Source: a virus. From it: DNA of 64,000 bases. This document shows, piece after piece, positions 16,103-63,348 of this stretch. Position 1 is the first letter of the stretch. Every line of letters starts with the position of its first letter. The notes under the pieces are model-generated. The model was given only the letters and a program-made list of their open reading frames with translations. It made no database searches and was not told where the DNA came from. The stretch lies in IMG/VR virus record IMGVR_UViG_3300045988_135522. One strand, given 5' to 3'. Position numbers and translations under genes: made by a program.

Positions 16103-16255
16103 ATGAAACAAAGAAAACCAATTAAGGTCTCAAAAGAAAGGGCAATCATCATAGCCTCAAACCACAACAACATCCCAATCCAAAAGGCTAAGGAATATAC
16201 AGATTCCGAACTAAGGGAAGTATTAAGGCATCTGAACCTAAAGCCAGGCTTCTAA
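16103..16255 (+). CDS. possible 50-aa protein
   Basis: My own translation gives MKQRKPIKVSKERAIIIASNHNNIPIQKAKEYTDSELREVLRHLNLKPGF. Last plausible gene before the ORF-poor field. Confidence 0.35.
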   Translation: MKQRKPIKVSKERAIIIASNHNNIPIQKAKEYTDSELREVLRHLNLKPGF

Positions 16256-17184
16256 TACAACCCCAAACATGAAAAACATACCTAATAACTTCTCCAAGAG
16301 AATAAGATACTACATCTTCAGAATCATCCTTAAAAGGTATACCATAAAGGTATGTATCAATATCTATAAAACCAACCACCCCAAACACAAAAGAAATCAA
16401 TAACCCATAACATCATCCATAATATATAAGGGCGTATATAAATATCTATACTTATAATCATCAATCATATAAGGCTTTTAAGGTTGGCTTTTATCTTAGA
16501 GGCCTTTTATTTATGTGTTAGGTTAGGGCAAAAGTTAACAGGCAGTCGATGATAGGGTTCAGATATCGAAGAAGTCCAAGGGCCATAAAATCGGGGTGAG
16601 GAAAAAATTTTGGGTAGGGCAATCTTAAGGCCTCACTGTGTACCCTATGAGCTCTGGAGCTATCTTTGTTACTATACGTAGGAGCTAACCAGACTTAGGG
16701 CCCTAAGACCAAAAGAGAGCCCTAAAGGCAGCCTTTAAGGTACCCAAACCCTTACCTTAATCAAGTCTATATTATATAATCATAAGTCTCTTAAGGCAAG
16801 GTTAAGGCCAATAGCTAAGGCCTTTTCGATAAAGAGACTTATGGCCACTCTACTTGTCTATACATGAGAATAAATGAATAGCTTCATTGGTACACTTAGG
16901 TGCCTTTAAGGGCCTTAATCCTAATCCCTAAAGAATACAATCTATATTATATATATATATATGCGAGTCTTTTAGGGGATTTTGGAACAGGTGTCTAAAA
17001 TCGATATGCCAGGAATAGAGTATTGGAGATTTGATTTCTCAAGTTAAGGCACATTTAGGGTACCTTTTAAGGCCTTTTATGGTGGGTTAAGGTACCTTAA
17101 TATAGCCTTTATATTATATAAGGATTAGCTTTTAGTGGCCTTTAGGATTAAGGGCCCAAGGCCTAATGGGGCCCAGAATATTTA

Positions 17185-17216
17185 TTTGCATATATTATAT
17201 ATTATTCTTATATTTG
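17185..17216 (+). promoter_or_regulatory. Bacteroidota-type promoter
   Basis: TTTG 17185-17188, 20-nt spacer, TATATTTG 17209-17216, 43 nt before ATG 17259. Confidence 0.65.
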
Positions 17217-17258
17217 CATAAAGAAAGATAAATAATAAACCCAAAAACATTTAAGGCC

Positions 17259-17483
17259 ATGCTTAATTCTAAAGATTTTACCACTGCCCTGGAAATCATT
17301 TCCAAACACCATTCGACTGAATTGGCCATCAATACTCCTAAGGATAACTTCGGGGGATATATGGGTCAATCGGAATTCAGGTTGCATATTAAGAAATGTG
17401 TACCTTCTGTAATCAATAATCTGATTCGTGCAGGGTACATCCTTAATATGGGACCTGAAGGATTGGAGGTCGATAAGATTTAA
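17259..17483 (+). CDS. hypothetical protein
   Basis: 74-aa ORF with its own promoter (17185-17216) and terminator (17506-17529), embedded in the repeat field. Confidence 0.5.
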   Translation: MLNSKDFTTALEIISKHHSTELAINTPKDNFGGYMGQSEFRLHIKKCVPSVINNLIRAGYILNMGPEGLEVDKI

Positions 17484-17505
17484 CCTTCGTTTGCTTTCAA
17501 GGTTG

Positions 17506-17529
17506 GGCCCCGCTTTTAGGGGCCTTTTT
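17506..17529 (+). terminator. hairpin terminator
   Basis: GGCCCC(17506-17511)/GGGGCC(17519-17524) followed by TTTTT. Confidence 0.6.
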
Positions 17530-18061
17530 ATATTGGTATATGGTTAAGGCCTTATATCGCTTTTAGTGGCTTGGCTTATAGGCCTTTTATATTATAGGTT
17601 AAGGTACCTATATGGTACCCAACCAGGCCTTCAGATATTATATAATATAGGGGGAATGAATGCAATGAAAGGTGTATCCCAATGCAAGCAGGGGCATATC
17701 ATAGAAACTTAAGACTTACGGAATATAGTTTACTTGTTTATAAAACTAAGAACTTCTAGATTATGAAAGGCAGGGTACCCAATCCTAAGCCAACCCTGGG
17801 AACTTCAGGTTGAAAATAAAGGCAATGCAGGGTAGGAGCTAAGGCCTTAATTCATTTCGGACATATAGGACTCAACCCAGGAGCTAAGACCATTTTAAGA
17901 ACCGAACATTAAGACCTTCTATCAGAACCTTCTTTCAGGTACCCTGATGGTGCCAAGAAGGCCCACAAAGCAATTCCCATGCCAGGAATGTCCAGAAATA
18001 GCTCCCAGAAAGTTTTATGAAAATAAATGCTTCCGGGGCCACCAATTATAAATATTTGTTG

Positions 18062-18069
18062 TATATTTG
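18062..18069 (+). promoter_or_regulatory. -7 box (TATATTTG) without a clean -33 element
   Basis: TATATTTG at 18062-18069, 53 nt before ATG 18122. No TTTG at the family's 20-nt spacing. Confidence 0.4.
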
Positions 18070-18121
18070 TAATACAGAAAAGAACTAATAAAAGTTAAAC
18101 CAATTAAAAAATTTTACTATT

Positions 18122-18463
18122 ATGAAAGCAAATGAAATTTTAGCAATCGGCAATGAAATTTTTTCGACCAACGCAAGAAAATCTATTTACAAAAAAGAAA
18201 TTTTTGCAGAGTGCAAAACCGACAAAGAAAAAAAGAATCTGCGAATGAAGTTGCGTAAAAAGTTGGATAACTTTATTGCCGAAAGCATTGCATCGGCAAA
18301 GCAACCCGCCAAGTTGGCCGAACTCCGCAAGGCATGGCAATCCTATGCCACTCAGGTATATATTAACTCCACTGCAATAGTGGATGCCAATGCCAACACG
18401 GAGAAACGGAAATCCATCACCGACTTCCTTGCACTTATGCAACCGGCAAAGGGGGGTAAATAA
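18122..18463 (+). CDS. Lys-rich protein
   Basis: 113 aa. KTDKEKKNLRMKLRKKL tract. In-phase antisense ORF 18140-18442 indicates the TTA/CTA/TCA-poor codon class. Confidence 0.6.
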   Translation: MKANEILAIGNEIFSTNARKSIYKKEIFAECKTDKEKKNLRMKLRKKLDNFIAESIASAKQPAKLAELRKAWQSYATQVYINSTAIVDANANTEKRKSITDFLALMQPAKGGK

Positions 18464-18562: not shown

Positions 18563-18752
18563 ATGCAAGGACTTTTTGGGCTCCTCGCATTAAGGGATTC
18601 CTGAATTATCCATTACCCTTAGCTCCTCCTGAAAGGCACCCACCGAATGGGCACATAACCACATCCCCCCTCTCCCTACACAAAATAAAGAACCCTACCA
18701 AAGGCTCTTCATAAAATTTTTCCAGGATATTTTTAGGCTCCTATTATAAGGC

Positions 18753-22489: not shown

Positions 22490-23110
22490 CTATTTTTCGG
22501 GTTTGTTTTGGGTCAACTTAGTAATTACCTGATTTTTATTGATTAGTATATTGTGTATGGTTGTTAATCCCACCTTAAATTTATGCGACAAATATACCAT
22601 GGTACACTTGGGATGTCTCTCTTTATATCTAAGTATACGTAATTTTAGTCTATTAGAGTACTTACTATTCCCATTTTCTTCACCTACGAGTCCTATTTTA
22701 CAACCTCCGTTAAACCTACCATCTTCTTTACACTGTTGAATATTCTCTTTTTGAGTTCCCCAATACAAGTTACTCACTCGGTTATTTAACGGATTGTTAT
22801 CCTTGTGACATACGTAAGGTTTATTTTCTGGGTTAGGTATATAAGCTAAAGCCACTAACCGTGACACTTTTATTAACTTATTTATCACTCCATTTTCAGT
22901 ATGTGTACATACATGTACTCTATGATATTTATATAAACCATTACGGGATTTGAAAATCTGTATATTTAATTTTTTCCATTTACCGTTTCTTTTACTAAAA
23001 TATGTGCCGCTTGTAGTATTGTAATACCTATCTTTACGATAAACCTTACCAACCTTACTAACATAATAGTTAGGTATACCCGGTATATTCTCTCTCATAA
23101 TTTCATACAA
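22490..23110 (-). CDS. HNH homing endonuclease (NUMOD4 + HNH_3-like), free-standing
   Basis: IPGIPNYYVSKVGKVYR N-terminal motif and SRLVALAYIPNPENKPYVCHKDNNPLNNRVSNLYWGTQKEN HNH core. Paralogous to 57945-58427, 62845-63348 and the terL intein insert. Confidence 0.8.
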   Translation of the reverse strand: MYEIMRENIPGIPNYYVSKVGKVYRKDRYYNTTSGTYFSKRNGKWKKLNIQIFKSRNGLYKYHRVHVCTHTENGVINKLIKVSRLVALAYIPNPENKPYVCHKDNNPLNNRVSNLYWGTQKENIQQCKEDGRFNGGCKIGLVGEENGNSKYSNRLKLRILRYKERHPKCTMVYLSHKFKVGLTTIHNILINKNQVITKLTQNKPEK

Positions 23111-23122
23111 ATATTAACTACA

Positions 23123-24142
23123 ATGACAAATAGTAAATCTATTAGAATTATAGGGGTATGTGCTGCTCAAGGAGCTTTATTATTCCCGTTCCGTTCCCAG
23201 GAGATAGTAGCAAATATAGAACCCCGTTCGGTTTTTCATAGTAAGGGTGAACCTCAATGGAAGCTCAATTTCGGGGATATACCCTTTGTAAGGTCTTTAG
23301 AGGAGGTAAAAGCTCAAAAAATAGACCTGATACTCGGTTCTCCATCATGTGGACATAGCTCTGTATTCTCATACTCCAGGAAAAAATCCCTCGGTAAACC
23401 ACGGGAAGATGTCACCCTCAATTTATATCTTTCCAGTATTAAGAAATTCAAACCAGCAGTATTTATGCTGGAGAACCTCCCTAAACTTCTAGATTTTATC
23501 CCTATCGGGGAATGGGAGCATAATTTACCCGATTACAAACTTATAGTGCACTGTCATCCTGTTACGGTATTTGGTAATTCTCAACAAAGTAGGAAACGTT
23601 TGGTGTTAATAGGAGTCAGAAAAGACTCCAAGATCAATCCTCAGATCTTTGATCATACTTTTAGAGTTACTAAACCCAAAAATCTGTGTCAACTGAAGAA
23701 AGGAGTAAGGAGAGACATAAACTATAGAGAAGCTGATGATAAAAAATTGGCCATGTATCATTATGCAGATAAGTCAAAAACTACTTTGACAGTAGCTCAA
23801 GTGAGAAAGCTATGGAAAACTGAGTTCAAAAATGATTACAAATGGCCCATGAGAACTCAAAAGATGAAGACTCTCCCGGGAGTATATCGAAATAAGAAAA
23901 AGAGCTACCCATTAACCGTAAGACCTTCATCAAGGCAATTTAATCCCCACGGTAGAATAATGGGACTTGATGAATATAGGGTGATTATGGGTTTTCCCAA
24001 ATCATTCAAGGTATATTTTGACAATGATAATCCGACTTATTGGCTGAATAAAGGGAGAAATACCCTAACTAAGGGTGCCGTATATGAGAATTCATTGTGG
24101 TTAAAATCCTGTTTACAAAAGGCTGGTCTAATATCAAAATGA
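23123..24142 (+). CDS. DNA cytosine-5 methyltransferase-like protein (divergent motifs)
   Basis: Motif IV-like GSPSCGHSS, VI-like FMLENLPKL, VIII-like QQSRKRLVLIG and IX-like EYRVIMGFPKSF. Motif I is degenerate (IGVCAAQGA rather than FxGxG). Confidence 0.55.
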   Translation: MTNSKSIRIIGVCAAQGALLFPFRSQEIVANIEPRSVFHSKGEPQWKLNFGDIPFVRSLEEVKAQKIDLILGSPSCGHSSVFSYSRKKSLGKPREDVTLNLYLSSIKKFKPAVFMLENLPKLLDFIPIGEWEHNLPDYKLIVHCHPVTVFGNSQQSRKRLVLIGVRKDSKINPQIFDHTFRVTKPKNLCQLKKGVRRDINYREADDKKLAMYHYADKSKTTLTVAQVRKLWKTEFKNDYKWPMRTQKMKTLPGVYRNKKKSYPLTVRPSSRQFNPHGRIMGLDEYRVIMGFPKSFKVYFDNDNPTYWLNKGRNTLTKGAVYENSLWLKSCLQKAGLISK

Positions 24143-24179
24143 ATATCCCCTATCGCGTACGTATATGCGCAGTTATTGA

Positions 24180-24226
24180 GTATTTTTCTTTAGAAAAATA
24201 CGAAAATAACCTCCAGCTTGCTGGAG
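24180..24226 (+). terminator. two consecutive hairpins downstream of the methyltransferase gene
   Basis: GTATTTTTCT tt AGAAAAATAC (24180-24201) and CTCCAGC tt GCTGGAG (24211-24226). Confidence 0.5.
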
Positions 24227-24269
24227 TACTTAGCTTTTAAGTATTAGTTTTAAGATTTACTTTCTTTAA

Positions 24270-24291
24270 CCCCCCTATAATCCCCCCTAAT
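24270..24291 (+). promoter_or_regulatory. tandem C6-TA(TA)AT boxes ahead of the long structural operon
   Basis: CCCCCCTATAAT (24270-24281) then CCCCCCTAAT (24282-24291), 21 nt before ATG 24313. A similar CCCCCCTTAA lies at 32173-32182 before ATG 32194. Confidence 0.25.
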
Positions 24292-24312
24292 TGTTTTCAT
24301 AAACCCTGAACC

Positions 24313-24972
24313 ATGAAAAATGTAATCCTAACCTCGGCCTTCATATTTATGGCCTTAACAATATTCTGGTTATGGAATCGAAATTCTGAATTAAGTCATG
24401 ACCTTAAAAATTCTTCTCGTCGGGTTGATACTGTTGTGGTTAATAATCCATTTGTACCCAAAGTTGAATTCCCTAAGATTCAATTACCCCGAATGGTGTT
24501 CCTATATCGGGTTGATTCTGTTCCCATTGAACGAATAGAATATGTTGATAGAGTGGTCACTATCATTCAGAAAGATTCAACTAAAATTGAATACAATGAA
24601 TTGTTCTTGACCAATTATCCCCAAGCTCCTAAGTTGTTGCAAATACTATCTGGTGGTGATAAGCTATCTATAACTACATTTAATACTGATTGTAAGCTTA
24701 TTACTGAGGAGTATTCGGTAAACTATTCTCGTTATCAATACAACTACCTGGATAGTAAATTAACTTACAAGAAAACGTCCTTCCTAAAAAGATTTAATCC
24801 AGTAGTTCAGTATACCCTACGACCAGTACATAACTTACATGATTTGGATTTTGGCTTGAAATACAATACCAGTAAATTTAATTATGAAGCCGGGTTGAAT
24901 ATCAACTATTATCCTAAGCTTCGGGATAATTTAGGTCTCGATCCTTACTTAAGAATTTCATACAATTTCTGA
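24313..24972 (+). CDS. putative outer-membrane beta-barrel-like protein (Lom-like moron?)
   Basis: N-terminal hydrophobic signal/anchor (VILTSAFIFMALTIFWLW). C-terminal half has alternating beta-strand patterns. It ends in L-R-I-S-Y-N-F, with hydrophobic residues at alternate positions and a terminal Phe, like an OMP beta-signal. Confidence 0.4.
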   Translation: MKNVILTSAFIFMALTIFWLWNRNSELSHDLKNSSRRVDTVVVNNPFVPKVEFPKIQLPRMVFLYRVDSVPIERIEYVDRVVTIIQKDSTKIEYNELFLTNYPQAPKLLQILSGGDKLSITTFNTDCKLITEEYSVNYSRYQYNYLDSKLTYKKTSFLKRFNPVVQYTLRPVHNLHDLDFGLKYNTSKFNYEAGLNINYYPKLRDNLGLDPYLRISYNF

Positions 24973-24973
24973 C

Positions 24974-27469
24974 ATGGCAAGAAAGAAGACATTAGTTGAA
25001 GATGCGAGTATTACACCTGAACAGCTTAAAACTCTGGTTCGGGTGATGAAAGACCCGTTCTTCTTTTCTACTTTCTGCTACGTGATAAACCCAGTGTTGG
25101 GCATGGTAAAGTTCTTGCTCTACCCTTTTCAGAAAGCAGTGCTATACCAATTCATGCTCAACAGGTTCAATATCATCCTAAAGTTTCGTCAGGCTGGTAT
25201 TACTGAGCTAATCTCTCTATACTGTCTTTGGTTAGCAATGTATCACCCTAACAAGAAGATAAACATTATCTCAATCAAGGACACCGTAGCAAAGAAGGTA
25301 CTAAAGAAGATTAAGTTCATGTACAAGAACCTACCCTCATATCTGCAAGAGCCTATCATAAACGGTCGTGCAGGGGAGTTTGGTTCTGTATCAACTATAG
25401 AGTTTGCAAATGGTTCTGTAATAGAATCTATTCCAACCTCTGACCAAGCTGGTCGTTCTGAATCTTTGTCGTTGTTGGTGATTGATGAAGCAGCAATCGT
25501 AAGATGGGCTTCAACTATCTGGGCATCAGCCTTCCCTACTCTATCAACTGGTGGTGCTGCTATAGTAAACTCATGTATTACTGGTGATACTCAAATTATA
25601 GGTAAAGATGGGCCATTCAGAGTAGATTCTATTTGTCCCAAAACTTTTGGTAAGATGGATATATCACATCTTGGGCTGAGAGTATTATCACATACTGGAA
25701 AGTGGCAGAGAGTACTTGGTTCTGTAAATAAGGGTGTACTGAAAACTTGGGAAGTTCACAATGAACAAGGTAGGGTTATTAAATGTACTCCAAAACATAA
25801 GTTGTATACTCTTGAAGGTTGGTTACCTGTTTCAGAGATAATCAAACGAGATATACCTGCTATCTTCTATCATACTGGTATAAGCGGTCTGGAGCAGAAT
25901 CCAGTAACCGTAAAACCCAAGAAAGAGATATGCAAACCCATACCTGGTTATCCAAACTATGAAGTCTCCAACTGGGGAAGAATCTTCATTGTAAAGAATG
26001 GGACGAGGGTAGAGAAGTTACCAAGACCTTGTAATAATAGGGAGAGATACCTAAATATAAGGTTGTGGAATAAGGGTCAAAAGAAAAAGATATGTGTCCA
26101 CAATCTGGTGGCTAAAGTATTCTTAGGAGAAATTCCAGAAGGATATGTAGTTGACCACATTAACAACAATCCTTCAGACAATTATGTAACCAATCTCCAG
26201 ATAGTTACAGTAGCTGAGAACGGTCAAAAAGCTGCGAAACATTCTTATGGAATGAAGCTTGGGTCTAAACTAAAAGGGGGATTCAACTACGACTTAAGAG
26301 TGGTGGCTTACATAAGATACCGTTATCAGGAACTTGGTTACTACTATGGAGTGTTGGAGAAGATATCTCAGGAGATTGAGAATAAGTTTGAGGTTAAACT
26401 GAATAAGTCTTATATTCAACGTATTGTATCTGGTAAACGTGGTACAAGTATCTATCTTTCTAAGCTGAAAGTAGTTAGAAAGTATTACGATACCATTTAC
26501 GATATTTGCGTTGAAAACGATGAATCTTACCTCATCAACGAAGACTACGTGTCTCATAACACCCCTTATGGTATAGGGAACTTCTTCCATAGTACTTGGG
26601 TAGATGCTATATCTGGGGGTAATCCGTTTAACCCCATACGATTATATTGGCAGATGCACCCTGATAGGGATGAGAAATGGTATGAAGAGATGTCTGCTGC
26701 TTTGGGTCCCAAGAGAACAGCTCAGGAGATAGACGGTGACTTCCTATCATCTGGGAATACAGTATTCGACTTAGCTGATATTAAAGCTATAGAGGAATGC
26801 TTATTTGACTACCCTGTTATCAATATCCGTCTCAAAGGTCAGTATAAAGAGTTCAACGAACCAGACCCAAACAAAGAATACTTTATCGGTGGTGACTGTG
26901 CTACTGGTAGAGGTACTGACTACTCTGCTTTCACCTGTATGGATAAAGAAGGGGAAGAGGCTGCAGTATATAAGGGGAGAATACCCCTGAACAAGTATGC
27001 CCGACTCCTTGGTGATGTTGGAGAGAAGTTCAATTTTGCTAAGTTAGCTCCCGAGACCAATGATGTTGGTATGACGGTAACTACCATACTTCAAGATGAG
27101 GGATATCCTAATCTATACTTCTATACTAAGCTCTTACGTAAGAAGAGGAAGAATAGACCAGAAGAAGATAAGTTCCCGGGATGGTTGACCACAACCAAGA
27201 ACCGTTCTGTAATAATCGAGAACTTAGAGAAGGATATCAGGGAAGAGAACGTAATTATAAAAGACCCGTTCTTTGTACAAGAAGCATATACTTTCATCTA
27301 TGACGGGGCTGGAAGACCAATTGCTCGTGGTAAGCATAGAATGAATAACTCATCTATGGACCTAGATTTGGAAGGTGAAACATATTCTGATGATGCGATA
27401 TTCGGTAAAGCTATCACTAATCATATCAGGTCTCACAGTCCATCTGGTACTGTAGTAATTCCTCAGTAA
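24974..27469 (+). CDS. terL: terminase large subunit, interrupted by an intein
   Basis: Deviant Walker A KFRQAGIT, Walker B LLVIDEAA, and a nuclease-half C-terminus. After conceptual removal of residues 201-529 the sequence is contiguous (AAIVNS|TPYGIGNFFH). Confidence 0.9.
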   Translation: MARKKTLVEDASITPEQLKTLVRVMKDPFFFSTFCYVINPVLGMVKFLLYPFQKAVLYQFMLNRFNIILKFRQAGITELISLYCLWLAMYHPNKKINIISIKDTVAKKVLKKIKFMYKNLPSYLQEPIINGRAGEFGSVSTIEFANGSVIESIPTSDQAGRSESLSLLVIDEAAIVRWASTIWASAFPTLSTGGAAIVNSCITGDTQIIGKDGPFRVDSICPKTFGKMDISHLGLRVLSHTGKWQRVLGSVNKGVLKTWEVHNEQGRVIKCTPKHKLYTLEGWLPVSEIIKRDIPAIFYHTGISGLEQNPVTVKPKKEICKPIPGYPNYEVSNWGRIFIVKNGTRVEKLPRPCNNRERYLNIRLWNKGQKKKICVHNLVAKVFLGEIPEGYVVDHINNNPSDNYVTNLQIVTVAENGQKAAKHSYGMKLGSKLKGGFNYDLRVVAYIRYRYQELGYYYGVLEKISQEIENKFEVKLNKSYIQRIVSGKRGTSIYLSKLKVVRKYYDTIYDICVENDESYLINEDYVSHNTPYGIGNFFHSTWVDAISGGNPFNPIRLYWQMHPDRDEKWYEEMSAALGPKRTAQEIDGDFLSSGNTVFDLADIKAIEECLFDYPVINIRLKGQYKEFNEPDPNKEYFIGGDCATGRGTDYSAFTCMDKEGEEAAVYKGRIPLNKYARLLGDVGEKFNFAKLAPETNDVGMTVTTILQDEGYPNLYFYTKLLRKKRKNRPEEDKFPGWLTTTKNRSVIIENLEKDIREENVIIKDPFFVQEAYTFIYDGAGRPIARGKHRMNNSSMDLDLEGETYSDDAIFGKAITNHIRSHSPSGTVVIPQ
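25574..26560 (+). mobile_element. intein (329 aa) carrying an HNH/NUMOD4-type homing endonuclease
   Basis: Starts at Cys (TGT 25574; block A CITGDTQIIG). Block B is TPKH. Ends in VSHN (AAC 25558... precisely 26558-26560) followed by a +1 Thr. The insert contains YPNYEVSNWGRIF and VDHINNNPSDNYVTNLQIVTVAEN. Confidence 0.85.
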
Positions 27470-55695: not shown

Positions 55696-55834
55696 AATAA
55701 TAAAGTAACAACTTGTATGAATTTTATCAAAATTATTTCACCGTCTGTGTTCAAGTATGTTCAAAGATGAGCTGGGAGAACTATATTATCTAGCAGATAC
55801 TATTGATTATACATTCATGAATATTATATAATAT

Positions 55835-57301
55835 ATGAAACAAAATAGGGTAAAGAAGAGGTTAAGCTCTTGTGACAAGTTTACATTCTCTATCGAGTTT
55901 CAATTGGAAGTACTTAGGTTTTTGGTACAAGGGAAAGAAGCTCTTCTATATATTCCCAAAATAAAACCCGGGTACTTTACTTTGATTGAGCACTCAGTAG
56001 TAGTAGAAGCTTTGGTAAAATTTGTAAAGAAATATCAACGAATACCCAGTGAGGTTTTAATGGTTGAACAAGTTAAAACCCTATTAGAAGGCAAAGATTA
56101 TGTGGACTTAGTTACCAAGGATGATATTCCTAACATTCATAGTTTAATATCGGACCTTTACAATAAGCCCCTGAAAGACGTAGATATTATTCTGGAGAAT
56201 ATACATAAATTCATTGCCTATATTGAGCTAAAGGCTTTGAACGAGGGTATGGATTTTTCGGATTATAATCTATATGAAACTTATCAAGCTAAATTAACTA
56301 AGATCCTACAGAGTTCAAAACCCCAAAAGAAGGATGAACCTTTGCTCATGGTTAGCGGAACTGCAATGCGACAGCTTATGAGAAAGGTTGACCCAGATGT
56401 GGTTCCTACTCCATTCTGGCAGTTGAATAGGTTGGGTAATGGAGATGGATATCCCAAGAACTCTCTCTTCGTTTTGATTGACCGTCCTAAACGAAGGAAG
56501 ACTTTTGCACTTATCAATGTTGCTCGGGGATACCTGGCAATGAAAAAGAATGTCCTCTATATAGATACCGAAAATGGTAAGAACCAGTTAATGGACCGTA
56601 TGATTCAGTCCACCCTAAATAAGACCAAGAGGGAAATGTTAACTGGTGATTATGATAAGATGGAGCAAAGGCACATGCGTAAATATAAACGTCTTGGTGT
56701 AGAGTTTATTGTGGAGCGTGTACCTGCAACCATTGCGGATTGTAATACCATTATTAACTTGGTTAGGAAACTGGAAACCGAGAAAGGTATCAAGGTGAAT
56801 GTCATAATGGTTGACTATGCTGCAAAGTTAGCTTCTATTGCCCGGGATAGGGATGATGTAGAACGTATCAACAATGTATACATTGACCTGGATAATATGG
56901 GCGATGAGTTAGGGTTAGATGCCATTTGGACTGCCCAACATGTTACCCGAGAAGGTGCTAAGCATCAAGAAACCAGATACGAGGATAATGATATAGCATC
57001 CGCTATTTCTATAATAAGGAATGCAAAATGCGTCATGGGATTAAATTCTACTCAAGACGAAGAAGAGCATAACATCATGAGAATGGAAGTTGTAGTTCAA
57101 CGCGATGGAGTTCCAAATGGTCGGGTAATGTTTAATATGGATCCCGAAAGACAACGGATGAAGGAATTCTCAAAAGAAGCCCGGGCTAAGTACGATGAGT
57201 CCATGGGTAAACAGGTAGATGACTTACTTAAGAAAAAGAAGAGGGTAAGTAATCCCAATGCAGACCCCGAAAAGAGAAGTAAAACCTCAGGAGATATTTA
57301 G
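55835..57301 (+). CDS. DnaB-like replicative helicase
   Basis: FVLIDRPKRRKTFALINVA (Walker A region), VIMVDYAAKL (Walker B) and WTAQHVTREG resemble DnaB-family RecA-fold motifs. Confidence 0.6.
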   Translation: MKQNRVKKRLSSCDKFTFSIEFQLEVLRFLVQGKEALLYIPKIKPGYFTLIEHSVVVEALVKFVKKYQRIPSEVLMVEQVKTLLEGKDYVDLVTKDDIPNIHSLISDLYNKPLKDVDIILENIHKFIAYIELKALNEGMDFSDYNLYETYQAKLTKILQSSKPQKKDEPLLMVSGTAMRQLMRKVDPDVVPTPFWQLNRLGNGDGYPKNSLFVLIDRPKRRKTFALINVARGYLAMKKNVLYIDTENGKNQLMDRMIQSTLNKTKREMLTGDYDKMEQRHMRKYKRLGVEFIVERVPATIADCNTIINLVRKLETEKGIKVNVIMVDYAAKLASIARDRDDVERINNVYIDLDNMGDELGLDAIWTAQHVTREGAKHQETRYEDNDIASAISIIRNAKCVMGLNSTQDEEEHNIMRMEVVVQRDGVPNGRVMFNMDPERQRMKEFSKEARAKYDESMGKQVDDLLKKKKRVSNPNADPEKRSKTSGDI

Positions 57302-57944: not shown

Positions 57945-58427
57945 ATGAGACTTAACAGCAATATAAAAGGTGTTAAAGTAAAGCCTATACCAAACTATCC
58001 AGAATATTTGGCTTCATTCGACGGTAGAGTATATTCCACTAAATTACATAGATGGCTATCTACTAACCCTCATAAGATATTCGGATATTTACAGGTACAT
58101 CTAAGAAAAAAGACACATAGATTGAATAGGGTTATAGCTACAACTTGGATACCTAATCCCGATAACTTACCATGTGTAGGTCATAAGGATAATAATAGAA
58201 CTAACAATAGAGTAGAAAATCTATATTGGTGTACTCATAAAGAAAATACTCAACAATGTATAAGAGATGGTAGATTCAAACCCAGAGGTAAAACTCCTTT
58301 GAGTATAGAGATTAGACGTAAAATAAAAGCCGAATACTTGAAAGGAAATACCACTCTACAAAAGTTAAGCCGTAAATATGGTAGAGCACATTCAGTTATT
58401 AGGAGGATAGTATATGAGACTAAATAA
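57945..58427 (+). CDS. HNH homing endonuclease (NUMOD4 + HNH_3-like), free-standing
   Basis: IPNYPEYLASFDGRVYS and LNRVIATTWIPNPDNLPCVGHKDNNRTNNRVENLYWCTHKEN. Overlaps the primase start by 14 nt. Confidence 0.8.
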   Translation: MRLNSNIKGVKVKPIPNYPEYLASFDGRVYSTKLHRWLSTNPHKIFGYLQVHLRKKTHRLNRVIATTWIPNPDNLPCVGHKDNNRTNNRVENLYWCTHKENTQQCIRDGRFKPRGKTPLSIEIRRKIKAEYLKGNTTLQKLSRKYGRAHSVIRRIVYETK

Positions 58428-60206: not shown

Positions 60207-61637
60207 ATGATAACTATAACCATAAAGAACTGCAATGTTTGTGAATTATCTGGCCCTGCTAAGTTCACAAATAAGTTGTATGAAATGTTCCGGATTAAGC
60301 ATCCGGACGCTTGGCATATAATGATGTATAGCAGGGCAAAGAACTGGGATGGTTACGTAAAATATATCTCTGATTATGGGCAATTCAAAATAGGTCTTCT
60401 AAATAGGGTTTACAATGAATGCCTTAAAACGGGACAGGAGGTTAAAATCATAGATAATAGACCCCAGTTAGGAGTTAAACCAGTAATTCCAACAATACTT
60501 GGAGATAAAGAATTACGGGAAGTACAAAAAGAAGCTCTAGAAAAGATTCTAAATAATCGAGTTGGAGATACTCCTTTTCTTATCTGTGCATCTGATTTGG
60601 CAGTTAATTTCGGAAAGACTTTGGTGTTCTGTGGATTACACCAGGCTTTCAAGAGGAAACTAAAAACTGTTTTATTGTTGAACAGTGCAGACTTATTTAA
60701 GCAGTTCAAAAAAGAGATTCCAGAACTGTTACCTGGTGAAAAGGTTGCATTCATACAGGGAAGTAAATGCAATGACTGGGGTAACTTTAATGTGTGCATG
60801 GTACAGTCTCTTGCCTCAAATATAAACCGGTATCAAAAGTTCCTATCTGAAATAGATATGGTACTTATAGATGAGGCTGACGTGATAGATAATAAAACAT
60901 ATAAAACAGTAATACAACATCTGTATAACTCTAGAATACGAGTAGGTTTGAGTGGTACCATCTACATGAGTAATCAGAAGAAGAAGTTAATACATAACCT
61001 GAATATCATGTCATTTATTGGTGATAAGGTTAACCAGATAAAATTAAGTGATATGATAGAGAAAGGGTATTCTACTCCTATTACTTGCAAGTTGGTATAT
61101 GCTCCCTTTAAATACTCTAAAGATGTGGATTACCCAACAGAATACAAGGAAGTGATATCAGATAATGTTAAAGCTTGGAAACTATCCCTTGACCGTACCA
61201 AGTATAACATTGGTAGAAAGAGATTACCAGCTTTGATAGTATGTAAGTTTATAGGTCATTGTGAAAATCTTTATCGGTATTATGCTAAACATCTCGGGAA
61301 TCAATACAACATACAATATGTACATCATAATACCAAAGGGCGTGATGAAATTCTACAAGCTTTTAGAGAAGGTAAAATCGATATACTAATAGCTACCACG
61401 ATTATTTCTAGAGGTCAAAACTTCCCTGAATTAAAATATCTGCAGAATACTGCATCAATGGATTCTAATGAAAAATCCATACAGATATTGGGACGTCTTG
61501 CAAGAACTCACATGAATAAAAAGAAAGCATACCTGGACGACCTTCAATTTCCGGGTAATTATCTAAAGAGACATGGTAACCATAGACGAATGTATTATCA
61601 GAAAGAAAAATTAAAGGTAATCAGAGTGGAAGGGTAA
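60207..61637 (+). CDS. SF2 DEAD/DEAH-box helicase
   Basis: Motif I AVNFGKTLV, motif II VLIDEAD, motif III GLSGT, motif V/VI ILIATTIISRGQNF / QILGRLAR. Confidence 0.75.
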   Translation: MITITIKNCNVCELSGPAKFTNKLYEMFRIKHPDAWHIMMYSRAKNWDGYVKYISDYGQFKIGLLNRVYNECLKTGQEVKIIDNRPQLGVKPVIPTILGDKELREVQKEALEKILNNRVGDTPFLICASDLAVNFGKTLVFCGLHQAFKRKLKTVLLLNSADLFKQFKKEIPELLPGEKVAFIQGSKCNDWGNFNVCMVQSLASNINRYQKFLSEIDMVLIDEADVIDNKTYKTVIQHLYNSRIRVGLSGTIYMSNQKKKLIHNLNIMSFIGDKVNQIKLSDMIEKGYSTPITCKLVYAPFKYSKDVDYPTEYKEVISDNVKAWKLSLDRTKYNIGRKRLPALIVCKFIGHCENLYRYYAKHLGNQYNIQYVHHNTKGRDEILQAFREGKIDILIATTIISRGQNFPELKYLQNTASMDSNEKSIQILGRLARTHMNKKKAYLDDLQFPGNYLKRHGNHRRMYYQKEKLKVIRVEG

Positions 61638-61676
61638 TACGCATATATGCGCACGTATATACCCACACTTATAACT

Positions 61677-61708
61677 CTATTAGTATTTAGTATACTAAAT
61701 ACTAATAG
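61677..61708. repeat. 32-bp perfect palindrome
   Basis: CTATTAGTATTTAGTATACTAAATACTAATAG equals its own reverse complement. Confidence 0.95.
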
Positions 61709-61710
61709 AG

Positions 61711-61736
61711 GTTTATATAGCTAAAGCTATATAAAC
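61711..61736. repeat. inverted repeat, 12-bp arms, 2-nt centre
   Basis: GTTTATATAGCT aa AGCTATATAAAC. Confidence 0.95.
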
Positions 61737-61745
61737 TTATACTTA

Positions 61746-61760
61746 ACTTACTTAGTAAGT
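61746..61760. repeat. 15-nt palindrome (7-bp arms)
   Basis: ACTTACT t AGTAAGT. Confidence 0.9.
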
Positions 61761-61766
61761 ATTAAC

Positions 61767-61782
61767 TTAAGCTAAAGCTTAA
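61767..61782. repeat. inverted repeat, 7-bp arms, 2-nt centre
   Basis: TTAAGCT aa AGCTTAA. Confidence 0.9.
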
Positions 61783-61891
61783 ATACGCACGCACGTATAA
61801 TGGTGAACCAGAAAGTTAGTGCATATACTATTCTACATCAATGACATTGAAATACCTATTAACTATCACTTGATATCAAACTCTCAAATAT

Positions 61892-62293
61892 ATGGCGAAG
61901 AAAAAGAAAGACAAGTTAAAGGAAGTAAGGAAGGAGTTAGAGACTGGGGATATTCTTGAACCTATGGATATCACCAAACTCGGTTCAGGTAATGACCCTT
62001 GTTTCGGTAAGAATTATGACCTATCAACCAAGGAATGTAAGATGTGCGGAGATTCTGAACTCTGTTGCATTAAGTTCACAGCTCTCATGGGTAAGACTCG
62101 TAAAGAGTTGGAAGCAGAAACTCAATTCAAGGATTTGGAACCTCTGGTGGATATAGAAGGTTGCAAGAAGTATTACCGTAAATTGGTAAGGGATAAACTC
62201 GGTAAGAAAGAAATACTCGATAAACTTCAGAATAAGTTCGAATTATCCCGAAAGGAAGCAAGAGACATTTATCGTAAATTCAACAGTAAATAA
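61892..62293 (+). CDS. Lys-rich, Cys-cluster protein
   Basis: 133 aa. MAKKKKDKLKEVRKE N-terminus. CFGKNYDLSTKECKMCGDSELCC cluster. Confidence 0.55.
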   Translation: MAKKKKDKLKEVRKELETGDILEPMDITKLGSGNDPCFGKNYDLSTKECKMCGDSELCCIKFTALMGKTRKELEAETQFKDLEPLVDIEGCKKYYRKLVRDKLGKKEILDKLQNKFELSRKEARDIYRKFNSK

Positions 62294-62294
62294 C

Positions 62295-62840
62295 ATGGTA
62301 CAATTAGAGTTCACTAAAGTAAGGGAAGTAAAATCCCCCAGTAGAGCAAATGCGGGGGATGCTGGACTAGATTTTCATATCCCTCATTTAACTGCCGAGG
62401 ATATCTTAAATGTTTCTATCAATCGGAATATGTGGGAATACAGGAGAATCCAAATCATTTCCGATCAGAATAAGATATGGGCAGAGTTACAACCTCATGC
62501 CCGAATATTAATCCCTTCAGGCATAAGAGTTCTCATCAATCCCCGGGAATCTATGTTAATGGCCGCAAATAAATCTGGGGTATCAACCAAAGAGGGCTTG
62601 ATATATACTGCTGAGATAGTTGACAGTCCCTATACTGGGGAGATGCACATAGGTATACTTAATACCAATCCTTACGTAGTTAGAATACCTTTGGACAGTG
62701 ATAAGAAATTAATGCAGTTCATTCATGTGCCTATTATACTTTCCACTCCCGTAGAGATAACCTTAGGGGAGTACGAAGAAAAAGCTAAGGATTGGGGAAC
62801 AAGAGGAGACAAAGGATTCGGAGCACACGATAACAAGTAA
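62295..62840 (+). CDS. dut: dUTP diphosphatase (trimeric dUTPase family)
   Basis: ANAGDAGLDF (motif 1/2), IVDSPYTGEMHIGILN (motif 3) and RGDKGFGAHD (motif 5). Confidence 0.75.
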   Translation: MVQLEFTKVREVKSPSRANAGDAGLDFHIPHLTAEDILNVSINRNMWEYRRIQIISDQNKIWAELQPHARILIPSGIRVLINPRESMLMAANKSGVSTKEGLIYTAEIVDSPYTGEMHIGILNTNPYVVRIPLDSDKKLMQFIHVPIILSTPVEITLGEYEEKAKDWGTRGDKGFGAHDNK

Positions 62841-62844
62841 AACC

Positions 62845-63348
62845 ATGGATGATAATATAAGGGGATTCCCAGGTTATCACATTACTAAAGAGGGAAAGTT
62901 ATATAGGTATGGTAAGTTACTCAAAGTTTATCACCATCATAGGTATTTGAGATGTAAGTTACATAACGGTAGTATAAGTAAAAATGTCAAGATACATAGA
63001 TTGGTAGCTGAAGCTTATATACCTAATCCTAATAACTTACCTATAGTAATGCACTTGGACGATAACCCCTTAAATAATATCGTAAGTAACTTGAAGTGGG
63101 GGACCCATAAAGAGAATAGGTATTTAGCTATTGTAAATTGTAAATTACCAAGACTTATAGGTAAAAACAATCCATGCTATGGATTGAGAGGTAGTAAAAA
63201 TCCCAACGCTAAATTAAAACCTGAGGATAGGGTAAAGATAAAAGAGTTACATGTAAAAGGAATAAGTGCTAGAGAAATACGTAACAAGTACTTTCCTAAT
63301 GTATGCGAAGAAACTATACGAAGGACAATTAACCAATGTTTAATCTAA
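62845..63348 (+). CDS. HNH homing endonuclease (NUMOD4 + HNH_3-like), free-standing
   Basis: FPGYHITKEGKLYR and IHRLVAEAYIPNPNNLPIVMHLDDNPLNNIVSNLKWGTHKEN. Inserted between dut and the MazG-like gene. Confidence 0.8.
   Translation: MDDNIRGFPGYHITKEGKLYRYGKLLKVYHHHRYLRCKLHNGSISKNVKIHRLVAEAYIPNPNNLPIVMHLDDNPLNNIVSNLKWGTHKENRYLAIVNCKLPRLIGKNNPCYGLRGSKNPNAKLKPEDRVKIKELHVKGISAREIRNKYFPNVCEETIRRTINQCLI

What the first reader, a model, noticed from the sequence alone, without database searches (positions are those of the whole stretch)
16404..18060. 1.65-kb ORF-poor field built from a small vocabulary of repeated words and GC-core palindromes
Seen: in a genome otherwise packed with genes, this stretch holds only one 74-aa ORF, which has its own promoter and terminator. 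It contains GGTTAAGG(CC/TACC) at 16800, 17085, 17542 and 17597 (variant at 17042). GGTACCCAA occurs at 16739, 17614 and 17774. AGGAGCTAA occurs at 16680, 17834 and 17879, with an inverted copy at 18619. ATGCCAGGAAT is at 17006 and 17979, and GCTTTTAGTGGC at 17128 and 17559. GGCCTTTT(T)AT, often running into TATTATATA, is at 16501, 17071, 17521 and 17581. There is a 14-bp palindrome CTTAGGGCCCTAAG (16694-16707), an 11-bp inverted repeat ATAAGTCTCTT/AAGAGACTTAT (16782-16792 and 16832-16842) enclosing an AAGGCC/GGCCTT hairpin, GGTACC-TATAT-GGTACC (17603-17619), and an (AT)7 run (16949-16962). Many words centre on GGCC, GGTACC or GGGCCC in an AT-rich background. Inference: iteron-like binding sites. 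Possible roles are a replication origin, a packaging or partition site, or a protein sponge, and/or a battery of small structured RNAs each ending in a GGCC-stem terminator. The spacing is irregular, so it is not a CRISPR array.
Basis: partly seen in the sequence, partly recalled or inferred. Interest (0 to 1): 0.7.

Follow-up and report, generated by a model that had tools for sequence, protein, structure and literature searches.

The report
Conserved non-coding punctuation field in gut phage
This gene-free stretch is a real, evolutionarily conserved block of regulatory DNA (terminator hairpins, promoter-like AT runs and three or four gene-less repeat units) sitting at a hotspot where an uncultured gut phage swaps small early genes; it does not look like a replication origin or a large folded RNA.

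Summary
Their repetition is far above chance: 93 repeated 9-mers against 16 ± 5.5 in dinucleotide shuffles. The words peak only in kb 16-17 of the window.

The stretch is truly non-coding. No frame opens under any stop reassignment, and no short ORF is kept across relatives. It is present in more than 60 related gut-phage contigs, where aligned sites are more conserved (0.71-0.97) than third codon positions of neighbouring genes (0.48-0.86).

Its anatomy is:
- a strong + strand terminator (T1);
- three or four tandem ORF-less units of about 165-175 nt with shared 5' and 3' boundary modules;
- stem-loop plus host-type (Bacteroidota) promoter composites around a small-ORF cassette hotspot;
- a right half with a hairpin whose loop, not stem, is invariant.

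Insertions and deletions among relatives fall at the repeated words.

Best reading: a PeSL-like terminator/promoter punctuation and recombination scaffold. Its unstructured conserved cores are either short early transcripts or protein-binding sites.

Iteron origin, pac site, CRISPR array and ornate RNA are not supported. Function remains untested.

The parts
16103..16255 (+). ORF50, a 50-aa gene that lies immediately upstream of the field in every relative checked. It is context and a candidate partner, not part of the non-coding field.
   Evidence: It is nearly invariant in 79 loci. The one contig that has two fields also has two ORF50-like genes. Its C-terminus gives only sub-threshold SAP/LEM hits. 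The AF2 model is confident (pLDDT 90.7) but has no significant PDB fold match.
16466..16512 (+). T1, a strong intrinsic terminator closing the upstream early operon. It has a 14-bp stem with two G.U pairs, followed by TTTTATTT.
   Evidence: Found by the terminator scan. MFE is -17.9 kcal/mol, z = -5.3. The hairpin is kept in 16 of 18 sequence variants with z from -4 to -7.5, and substitutions turn G.U into A-U.
16593..16767 (+). Unit U1, an ORF-less unit. It holds the conserved core 16635-16700, the palindrome CTTAGGGCCCTAAG (16694-16707) and the 3' module TTTAAGGTACCC (16733-16745).
   Evidence: Conservation map and unit alignment. The right arm of the palindrome is not conserved in the L007 class.
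16768..16942 (+). Unit U2. It consists of a TA run (16768-16780), a long hairpin (16781-16843) enclosing the AAGGCC/GGCCTT hairpin, and the 3' module GGTACACTTAGGTGCC-TTTAAGGGCCTTAAT (16888-16920).
   Evidence: The hairpin has z = -5.1. It is kept in 20 of 24 variants, with one compensatory C-G to U-A change and G.U-compatible changes, and is lost in the L008 class. Unit spacing is conserved in relatives.
16943..17109 (+). Unit U3. It consists of the (TA)n run (16943-16964), a nearly invariant unstructured core (16965-17050), and the 3' module TTTAGGGTACCTTTTAAGGCC plus GGTTAAGGTACCTTAAT (17054-17101).
   Evidence: Alignment of 42 variants. The core folds no better than shuffles, z = +0.3. U2 against U3 gives z = 3.2, with similarity at both ends only.
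17110..17184 (+). Partial unit U4: a TA run, the second GCTTTTAGTGGC copy, and GC-stem hairpins directly in front of the promoter.
   Evidence: In all 22 sequence variants the 52 nt before the -33 box fold into GC-stem hairpins built from different sequences (z from -1.1 to -4.5). The + strand is at least as stable as the - strand in 19 of 22.
17185..17530 (+). The one coding cassette at the hotspot: promoter TTTGCA-N18-TATATTTG (17185-17216), the 74-aa ORF (17259-17483) and a terminator (17505-17525).
   Evidence: Relatives carry at least 10 different cassette complements at this position. An extra 90-aa-ORF cassette is flanked by a duplicated promoter.
17538..17592 (+). 'Anchor' hairpin AAGGCCTTATA...TATAGGCCTT + TTTTAT, with a conserved 20-nt loop TCGCTTTTAGTGGCTTGGCT.
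   Evidence: Present exactly or nearly so in 50 of 55 loci that were found independently of it. In 5 loci both stem arms are destroyed while the loop is unchanged. z is only -0.6.
17593..17765 (+). Conserved right-hand block: GGTACC-N5-GGTACC (17603-17619), a TA run (17633-17650) and the invariant stretch AATGCAAGCAGGGGCATATCATAGAA (17680-17706).
   Evidence: Conserved at 70-85% in GenBank relatives. See also the alignment of 35 variants. It is unstructured, z = +1.3.
17766..18040 (+). Right-hand part that exists in two sequence classes among relatives. It includes AGGAGCTAA x2, GGTACCCTGATGGTGCC and the second ATGCCAGGAAT copy.
   Evidence: The window's class aligns at 69% over 633 nt, with indels not in multiples of 3, to the second field of contig 130610.
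18040..18463 (+). Promoter (TATATTTG at 18062) and ORF113, the conserved gene that closes the field on the right (context).
   Evidence: Homologues were found in 52 viral contigs, each preceded by an ORF-free field.

Best explanation
The stretch 16.40-18.12 kb is one conserved non-coding module, about 1.4 kb in all. In this genome it is split by a single inserted 74-aa cassette. It lies in the early, hyperplastic small-gene region of an uncultured Bacteroidota-type gut phage.

The 'small vocabulary' exists because the module is assembled from a few re-used transcription-punctuation parts:
- arms of GC-core hairpins (AAGGCC/GGCCTT, GGTACC, GGGCCC);
- their U-tracts (GGCCTTTTAT);
- AT runs of the kind that form the spacer of the phage's own strong early promoters.

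These parts make up terminator T1, three or four tandem ORF-less units of ~165-175 nt with common 5' and 3' boundary modules, and stem-loop + promoter composites.

How it most likely works:
- The hairpins stop or insulate + strand early transcription.
- The promoters restart transcription for each cassette.
- The repeated modules are the homology at which small early genes are gained, lost and swapped, as with PeSL elements of T4-type phages.

Shown: the anatomy, the conservation and the placement of breakpoints. Inferred: terminator and promoter activity, and the role of the unstructured conserved cores. For those cores I favour short early non-coding transcripts over protein-binding DNA, but only slightly.
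For: **Non-coding**
- Stops are dense in all six frames, and no frame opens on reassigning any one stop.
- No sORF of 12 aa or more is intact in all relatives. The best one changes mainly non-synonymously.
- An independent gene call leaves the stretch empty.

**Constrained**
- Identity at aligned field sites is 0.71-0.97. Third-codon identity in ORF50, ORF74 and ORF113 of the same genome pairs is 0.48-0.86.
- The field is present in every relative, down to 64% ORF113 identity.

**Punctuation**
- T1 has z = -5.3 and is conserved with G.U to A-U changes.
- Terminator-like sites are enriched: 15 against 6.9 ± 2.0 in 12-20 kb, mostly on the + strand within the field.
- All 22 variants of the segment before the promoter keep a GC hairpin made from different sequence.
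- Nine promoters fully match TTTG-N17-23-TAnnTTTG with the TTTGCA/TATATTTG form, all on the + strand between 0.7 and 17.2 kb.

**Tandem units**
- GGYRCC sites are spaced 160-173 nt and TA runs 171-180 nt, in the window and in most of the relatives checked.
- Similarity between units is confined to their ends.

**Recombination scaffold**
- At least 10 different cassette complements occur at one site.
- A cassette insertion is flanked by a duplicated promoter.
- The window has an 11-nt deletion between two GTTAAGGC copies.
- L025 has a 32-nt tandem duplication, and blocks are replaced at TTTTAAGGCC.
- In contig 130610 a second field has its left and right halves contiguous, with no cassette between them.

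**Defining features of PeSLs** are taken from PMC2839356 and PMC4122927.
Against: - No expression data exist. Promoter and terminator activity are predicted from sequence only.
- PeSL-type punctuation does not explain why ~90-nt unstructured cores (16965-17050, 16635-16700, 17680-17706) are nearly invariant. It also does not explain why the anchor's loop, rather than its stem, is conserved.
- The TA runs that start the ORF-less units lack the TTTG/TAnnTTTG boxes, so they are not recognisable host-type promoters.
- The T-tract after the U3 3' module is not conserved.
- Not all early promoters of this phage have an adjacent hairpin.
- High conservation could partly reflect gene conversion between co-infecting phages rather than function.
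Confidence: 0.5

Rival explanations
1. DNA-level protein-binding array. On this reading the oriented words (TTARGG(TA)CC, GGYRCC, AAGGCC) and the invariant unstructured cores are operator or decoy sites for a phage or host DNA-binding protein. One candidate is the invariant neighbour ORF50; another is ORF113. The array would control or titrate that factor early in infection.
For: - Conserved blocks are unstructured and selected at the sequence level.
- The anchor loop is kept where the stem is lost.
- Palindromes with 0-4-nt centres cannot form good RNA hairpins.
- ORF50 is always adjacent and is duplicated together with the field. It has sub-threshold SAP/LEM-type hits.
- The distant relative L112 has its own repeated near-palindromic word, (T)GAACACGTATTCA, four times in its field.
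Against: - The words are strongly strand-biased (for example 12 against 2, and 14 against 7). That is unusual for dimer-binding palindromes.
- There is no phasing.
- The palindromic partner arm of CTTAGGGCCCTAAG is not conserved.
- The ORF50 model has no significant fold match to DNA-binding proteins.
- No binding protein has been identified.
Confidence: 0.22
2. Battery of small non-coding RNA genes. Each TA run would be a phage-specific promoter, and each ORF-less unit would give a 45-170-nt early RNA with an unstructured conserved seed. These RNAs would act on host or phage targets.
For: - The units share 5' and 3' boundary modules but differ in their interiors, as paralogous sRNA genes do.
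- Hairpins are + strand specific, with G.U pairs and U-tracts.
- The U2 hairpin is kept, with one compensatory change.
- Conservation exceeds that of synonymous sites.
Against: - The TA runs lack Bacteroidota promoter boxes. They are not a general motif before other genes. The copy before the helicase abuts its ATG and is lineage-limited.
- No conserved terminator ends U3.
- No complementarity beyond chance was found to the rest of the window.
- Folding z-scores are ordinary.
- There are no Rfam hits.
Confidence: 0.2
3. Replication origin, with the TA runs acting as unwinding elements and the words as iterons.
For: - The AT-rich runs, including (TA)10, lie next to GC-core repeated words.
- The region is non-coding and conserved.
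- Origins in non-coding DNA at the end of the early region are known in lactococcal phages (my own knowledge, not checked here).
Against: - There is no single repeated unit and no regular or helical spacing.
- The DnaB-like and SF2 helicases are at 55.8-61.6 kb, with a separate palindrome-rich ORF-free stretch at 61.63-61.89 kb.
- Cumulative GC skew has no extremum here.
- The field tolerates cassette insertion in its middle and duplication.
Confidence: 0.05
4. Decaying remnants of former gene cassettes with no present function.
For: - Cassettes do decay here. L007 carries a pseudogene remnant of the 128-aa ORF downstream of its 74-aa ORF.
- The units have cassette-like boundaries.
Against: - The field is kept ORF-free, in the same order and size, in all relatives.
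- It is more conserved than third codon positions of flanking genes.
- The cores are nearly invariant across 42 variants.
Confidence: 0.05
5. Packaging (pac/cos) site or physical genome terminus.
For: - Many related contigs end within a few kb of this region. That includes 5-6 of 9 near-full-length contigs.
- Short repeat arrays flank the terminal repeats of T7 (my own knowledge).
Against: - The contig ends are scattered over 13.9-17.1 kb equivalents and beyond, not at one position. Two carry Nextera adapter remnants. Together these point to assembly breaks at repeated promoters, (TA)n and hypervariable DNA.
- The HNH/methylase/terS/terL cluster with its own non-coding stretch is at 22.5-25 kb.
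Confidence: 0.03

Closest known systems
PeSLs (promoter-early stem-loops) of T4-type phages (Arbiol et al. 2010, PMC2839356; Comeau et al. 2014, PMC4122927)
   Same: - Both are composite stem-loop + strong host-type early promoter motifs.
- Both are repeated in a hyperplastic region full of small ORFans.
- In both, G.U pairs occur in the stems.
- In both, indels and replacements between close relatives are bounded by the motifs.
   Different: - The phage lineage and host are unrelated. The promoters are Bacteroidota TTTG/TAnnTTTG, not sigma-70.
- The stems are GGCC/GGTACC-cored, not polyG/polyC.
- Here the motifs are embedded in a ~1.4-kb conserved ORF-free module with ~170-nt ORF-less units and invariant unstructured cores. 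The PeSL papers read here do not describe such a module.
- No activity or mini-circle data exist for this field.
Non-coding repeat- and palindrome-rich region in the pre-early (first-step-transfer) DNA of phage T5, the proposed injection stop signal. This is my own recollection of Davison 2015 and was not checked here.
   Same: Both are ORF-poor stretches of roughly kilobase size inside an early, small-gene region. Both are built from direct repeats, inverted repeats and palindromes.
   Different: - The T5 region lies in a long terminal repeat and is tied to two-step DNA injection.
- Here there is no evidence of a terminal repeat or fixed ends.
- No sequence similarity was tested.
Iteron-type origins of phages and plasmids
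   Same: Both are non-coding and AT-rich, with repeated short words.
   Different: - No single 17-22-bp repeat is present, and spacing is neither regular nor helical.
- The field is not next to replication genes.
Stoperators of cluster A mycobacteriophages (my own knowledge)
   Same: Both involve short asymmetric words that recur in one orientation relative to transcription.
   Different: - Stoperators are a single 13-bp site spread over the whole genome and bound by the repressor.
- Here there are several word types confined to 1.7 kb, and no repressor is known.
Large ornate phage-associated RNAs (GOLLD, ROOL) and other Rfam families
   Same: Both are long conserved non-coding sequences in phage genomes.
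   Different: There is no Rfam match, no folding excess and almost no covariation.

Membership tests
PeSL-like regulatory cassette | Consensus promoter for the host primary sigma factor | tested here: met
   TTTGCA-N18-TATATTTG is at 17185-17216. Eight further full matches of the TTTGCA/TATATTTG form lie on the + strand between 0.7 and 14.6 kb. This is a pattern match only, to the Bacteroidota consensus known from the literature.
PeSL-like regulatory cassette | Adjacent stable stem-loop able to terminate or attenuate upstream transcription | tested here: met
   All 22 variants of the 52 nt before the -33 box fold into GC-stem hairpins, z from -1.1 to -4.5. T1 and the 17505 terminator are supported. 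Not every early promoter of this phage has one.
PeSL-like regulatory cassette | Concentrated in a hyperplastic region upstream of ORFans, with indels between close relatives bounded by the motif | tested here: met
   At least 10 cassette complements occur at one site. An inserted cassette is flanked by a duplicated promoter. Small indels fall at repeated words.
PeSL-like regulatory cassette | Demonstrated promoter and terminator activity, and mini-circle formation | not testable with these tools
   This needs reporter assays and outward-facing PCR, as in PMC2839356.
PeSL-like regulatory cassette | T4-type myovirus with a sigma-70 promoter | tested here: not met
   The portal has no close relative among isolates. 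The promoter type is Bacteroidota. It therefore works like a PeSL but is not a member of that sequence family.
Iteron-type replication origin | Three or more copies of one 17-22-bp repeat with regular or helically phased spacing | tested here: not met
   The longest multi-copy families are 14-20 nt at 70-94% identity with irregular spacing. The phasing test falls below the 95% null for every word.
Iteron-type replication origin | Adjacent AT-rich unwinding element | tested here: inconclusive
   (TA)10 and several TATATTATATA runs are present. The same AT run, however, is the spacer of the phage's promoters.
Iteron-type replication origin | Linkage to initiator or replication genes | tested here: not met
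   The DnaB-like helicase is at 55835, the SF2 helicase at 60207 and dUTPase at 62295. None of the field's neighbours that were scanned has a significant family hit.
Structured non-coding RNA (Rfam family or new ornate RNA) | Match to a covariance model | tested here: not met
   There are 0 hits at gathering score in the window. Only chance-level hits (E of 0.5 or more) appear in 16.2-18.8 kb.
Structured non-coding RNA (Rfam family or new ornate RNA) | Folding energy below shuffles, and compensatory base changes | tested here: not met
   Mean z is -0.9 (left) and -0.2 (right), against -0.5 outside the field. Only 10 compensatory pairs occur in 72 candidate helices on the + strand, against 4 in 64 on the - strand. 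Only local hairpins (T1, U2) stand out.
Intrinsic (Rho-independent) terminator | GC-rich stem-loop followed by a U-tract on the transcribed strand, conserved in relatives | tested here: met
   T1 (16466-16512) and the 17505-17525 site meet this. The anchor hairpin (17545-17590) fits the pattern, but its stem is dispensable.
Protein-coding gene (standard or recoded) | Open frame conserved in relatives | tested here: not met
   The longest open stretch under any single stop reassignment is 104 codons, among 17-28 stops per frame. The best sORF (16982-17047) is intact in 81% of relatives, and its changes are mostly non-synonymous.
CRISPR array | Regularly spaced identical repeats | tested here: not met
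   TRF finds only (TA)n and two trivial arrays.

The most novel reading that the evidence does not exclude
The ORF50 gene plus the ~1.4-kb field could be a previously undescribed phage regulatory locus. On this reading the field is a conserved 'landing pad'. Its tandem ~170-nt ORF-less units would encode a family of early small RNAs, or form a decoy/operator array for the invariant 50-aa protein. At the same time the field would serve as the docking site where this abundant gut-phage lineage exchanges host-takeover genes.
Probability: 0.25. Interest if true: 0.7.

Novelty: new variant of a known kind. Interest (0 to 1): 0.45.

Why it matters
Phages of gut Bacteroidota are abundant but almost unstudied at the level of gene regulation. 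If this reading is right, the field shows that the promoter/terminator 'punctuation' that drives gene shuffling in T4-type coliphages has an independent counterpart in an unrelated gut-phage lineage.

The field also marks a compact, strongly constrained non-coding locus. It has invariant 60-90-nt cores, an invariant 20-nt hairpin loop and a tightly linked 50-aa gene. That makes it a concrete target for finding phage small RNAs or early DNA-binding regulators.

There is a practical point too. Its repeats, TA runs and cassette variability are a plausible reason why assemblies of this lineage often break near here.

Tried and rejected
- **Stop-codon recoding or a hidden gene.** Rejected.
- **13-aa micro-ORF MPGIEYWRFDFSS (17006).** The frame and stop persist even in L115 and L097, with a shifted start in L115. 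Changes are about 8 non-synonymous to 1 synonymous, and the invariant sequence extends upstream of it. It is not the source of the constraint, though it is not fully excluded.
- **tRNA/tmRNA.** None.
- **Rfam.** Nothing.
- **Global covariation scan of 38 relatives.** Too few compensatory pairs.
- **Sliding-window folding z-scores.** Ordinary.
- **Helical phasing of the words.** Absent.
- **Complementarity of conserved cores to the rest of the window.** Chance level only.
- **TA run as a general middle/late promoter.** Not supported.
- **Prophage or host search in 185,579 genomes.** Only 3 phage-like contigs in MAGs labelled as Clostridium, Lactobacillus johnsonii and Dysosmobacter, which I take to be mis-binned phage contigs. 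No host and no integration site.
- **ORF50 fold search.** The model is confident but has no significant match.
- **Methylase specificity from PDB homologues.** No hit, so a link between the GGCC words and the phage C5-methylase could not be tested.
- **Literature search for the GenBank relative MT121964.** Nothing found.
- **Membership in the 'Quimbyviridae' and related proposed families.** Not established.
- **Contig-end clustering as evidence of a terminus.** Rejected, because the ends are scattered and some carry adapters.
Full report
**Setting**

- The window is most of the genome of an uncultured gut phage. It carries a large terminase with an HNH intein, a portal and structural genes at 24-55 kb, and a DnaB-like helicase, an SF2 helicase and dUTPase at 55.8-63 kb.
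- The region from 0.7 to 18 kb holds small + strand ORFs. They sit behind nine strong promoters of the Bacteroidota type, TTTGCA-N18-TATATTTG.
- The only GenBank relatives are two unannotated faecal-virome records. The portal has no close relative among isolates.
- A scan of 185,579 bacterial and archaeal genomes found only three contigs, in MAGs whose labels (Clostridium, Lactobacillus johnsonii, Dysosmobacter) do not fit the Bacteroidota-type promoters. I take these to be mis-binned phage contigs.

**Observation**

- Word re-use is far above chance. There are 93 repeated 9-mers, against 16.3 ± 5.5 in dinucleotide-preserving shuffles and a mean of 18 in other windows of the same size. There are 25 repeated 11-mers against 1.4 ± 1.7.
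- GGCC, TTAAGG, AAGGCC and GGTACC words peak only in kb 16-17.
- The best degenerate motif (TTAAGGCC-like) has 14-15 copies, against 7-12 in shuffles. It is strand-biased.

**The stretch is non-coding and constrained**

- All six frames carry 9-28 stops per half. No frame opens if TAG, TGA or TAA is reassigned.
- An independent gene call on an 81-kb ENA contig leaves the same gaps.
- No ORF of 12 aa or more is intact in all relatives.
- The 13-aa ORF at 17006 keeps its frame even in distant copies. Its changes, however, are almost all non-synonymous, and the invariant sequence continues upstream of it.
- Pattern and protein searches recovered the locus in more than 60 IMG/VR contigs.
- In all of them the order is the same: ORF50, then an ~850-nt ORF-free left field, then 0-3 small-ORF cassettes, then a ~550-nt ORF-free right field, then ORF113.
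- Identity at aligned field sites is 0.71-0.97. Third-codon identity in ORF50, ORF74 and ORF113 of the same genome pairs is 0.48-0.86. The sequence is therefore under constraint or is being homogenised.

**Anatomy**

1. T1 (16466-16512) is a 14-bp hairpin with two G.U pairs and a U-tract. It has z = -5.3 and is kept in 16 of 18 variants, with G.U to A-U substitutions. It is a + strand intrinsic terminator ending the ORF50 operon.
2. GGYRCC sites lie 160-173 nt apart and TA runs 171-180 nt apart, in the window and in most of the relatives checked. This reveals tandem ORF-less units.
   - The units are U1 (16593-16767), U2 (16768-16942), U3 (16943-17109) and a partial U4.
   - U2 and U3 share a 5' module (TATATTATATA...AGTCT.TTARGG) and a 3' module (GGYACAYTTAGGKTRCC-TTTAAGG(G)CCTT). 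Their interiors are unrelated.
3. It folds with z = -5.1 and is kept in 20 of 24 variants, with one compensatory change and G.U-compatible changes.
4. The U3 core (16965-17050) is nearly invariant in 42 variants yet folds no better than shuffles.
5. The 52 nt in front of the cassette promoter fold into GC-stem hairpins in all 22 sequence variants, although the sequences differ. The + strand is the more stable one in 19 of 22. This is a stem-loop + promoter composite.
6. After the cassette terminator comes the 'anchor' hairpin (17545-17590). Its 20-nt loop is unchanged even in five loci where both stem arms are destroyed.
7. The rest of the right field has an invariant, unstructured block (17680-17706) and a distal part that exists in two classes.

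**The field is a cassette hotspot**

- Relatives that are otherwise 80-97% identical carry at least ten different complements of small ORFs between the two halves.
- An extra 90-aa-ORF cassette is flanked by a duplicated copy of the promoter and leader, 17182-17261.
- L007 keeps a decayed remnant of a 128-aa ORF.
- Small indels also sit at the words:
  - an 11-nt deletion in the window between two GTTAAGGC copies;
  - a 32-nt tandem duplication in L025;
  - block replacement directly after TTTTAAGGCC.
- Contig 130610 carries two fields. The second is a diverged copy in which left and right halves are contiguous. It is 69% identical over 633 nt to 17521-18119, with indels that are not multiples of three. 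Each copy is preceded by an ORF50-like gene.
- The field therefore behaves as one ancestral ~1.4-kb module into which cassettes insert.

**What it is not**

- *Iteron origin.* There is no single repeat and no phasing. The replication genes are ~38 kb away and have their own palindrome-rich ORF-free stretch. GC skew has no extremum here.
- *Pac/cos site or terminus.* Ends of related contigs are frequent nearby but scattered, and some carry adapter remnants, as expected for assembly breaks. The HNH/methylase/terS/terL cluster has its own non-coding stretch.
- *Ornate RNA.* There are no Rfam hits, folding z-scores are ordinary and there are few compensatory pairs.
- *CRISPR.* No regular repeats.

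**Best explanation**

- Much of the vocabulary consists of re-used parts of transcription punctuation. These are GC-core hairpin arms with their U-tracts, and AT runs identical to the spacer of the phage's early promoters.
- They are arranged as terminators, insulating stem-loops, promoters and ORF-less units.
- This matches what defines PeSLs in T4-type phages: a host-type promoter plus a stem-loop, concentrated in hyperplastic regions and bounding indels (PMC2839356; PMC4122927).
- It arose in an unrelated lineage with another promoter type, so it works like a PeSL system without belonging to that family.

**What remains unexplained**

- Punctuation does not explain the invariant unstructured cores, the invariant anchor loop, or the tight linkage to ORF50.
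- These could be seeds of short early RNAs or protein-binding DNA. I could not separate the two.
- ORF50 gives only sub-threshold SAP/LEM hits and no fold match.
- The TA runs lack recognisable promoter boxes.
- No target complementarity was found.

**Verdict**

The finding is a new variant of a known kind. It is of moderate interest because a strongly constrained 1.4-kb non-coding locus in a common gut-phage lineage has no assigned function.

Noticed in passing
window 61630-61895: A second ORF-free, palindrome-rich stretch inside the replication module, after the SF2 helicase. It contains ACGCATATATGCGCACGTATATAC, the long dyad CTCTATTAGTATTTAGTATACTAAATACTAATAGAG, TATATAGCTAAAGCTATATA, TTAAGCTAAAGCTTAA and ACGCACGCACGTATAAT. 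By position it is a better origin candidate than the field.
   Followed up: no
window 24135-24316: A non-coding stretch between the C5-cytosine methylase and the putative small terminase. It carries TATCGCGTACGTATATGCGCAG, a word related to those at 61.63 kb. It is a candidate cos/pac site next to an HNH gene (22490-23110, - strand) and the terminase.
   Followed up: no
window 24974-27469: The large terminase is interrupted by an intein with NUMOD4 and HNH endonuclease domains. Free-standing HNH genes lie at 22490-23110 (-), 57945-58427 and 62845-63348.
   Followed up: partly
window 16103-16255: ORF50 (MKQRKPIKVSKERAIIIASNHNNIPIQKAKEYTDSELREVLRHLNLKPGF) is nearly invariant across 79 loci and always abuts the field. 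It folds confidently (pLDDT 90.7) into a small three-helix protein with no PDB match. Its C-terminus resembles SAP/LEM helix-extension-helix motifs only below threshold.
   Followed up: partly
L098 / L061 (IMG/VR contig 3300045988_130610), L098:3700-5000: This 79.5-kb relative carries two copies of the ORF50 + field module. The second is a diverged copy with no cassette between its halves.
   Followed up: partly
L112:2968-3718 (IMG/VR contig 3300045988_177896): The most distant relative (64% ORF113 identity) also has two ORF-free fields. Its left field uses a different repeated near-palindromic word, (T)GAACACGTATTCA, four times. It looks like an operator-type site.
   Followed up: no
L088:1-45 and L107:1-42: Two IMG/VR contigs begin with Nextera adapter remnants (GTCTCGTGGGCTCGGAGATGTGTATAAGAGACAG). 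One is directly fused to the (TA)n run of unit U3. This is an assembly artefact and marks the TA run as a coverage or assembly breakpoint.
   Followed up: partly
window 17006-17047 and 17979-18020: Each of the two ATGCCAGGAAT copies starts a 13-aa ORF (MPGIEYWRFDFSS and MPGMSRNSSQKVL). The first keeps frame and stop in distant relatives and ends at the foot of the 17046-17109 hairpin. That arrangement would fit a leader-peptide attenuator, but the substitution pattern argues against a selected peptide.
   Followed up: partly
window 17486-17499 vs 18123-18136; also L001, L002, L016: The word TTTGCTTTCA follows the stop codon of several unrelated cassettes. Its complement, TGAAAGCAAATGAA, opens ORF113 and the 121-aa cassette ORFs (ATGAAAGCAAAT...). 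The meaning is unknown.
   Followed up: no
window 55812-55840: The 15-mer ATATTATATAATATA of the field (17635-17649) recurs immediately before the start codon of the DnaB-like helicase. It is conserved there in close relatives only.
   Followed up: yes
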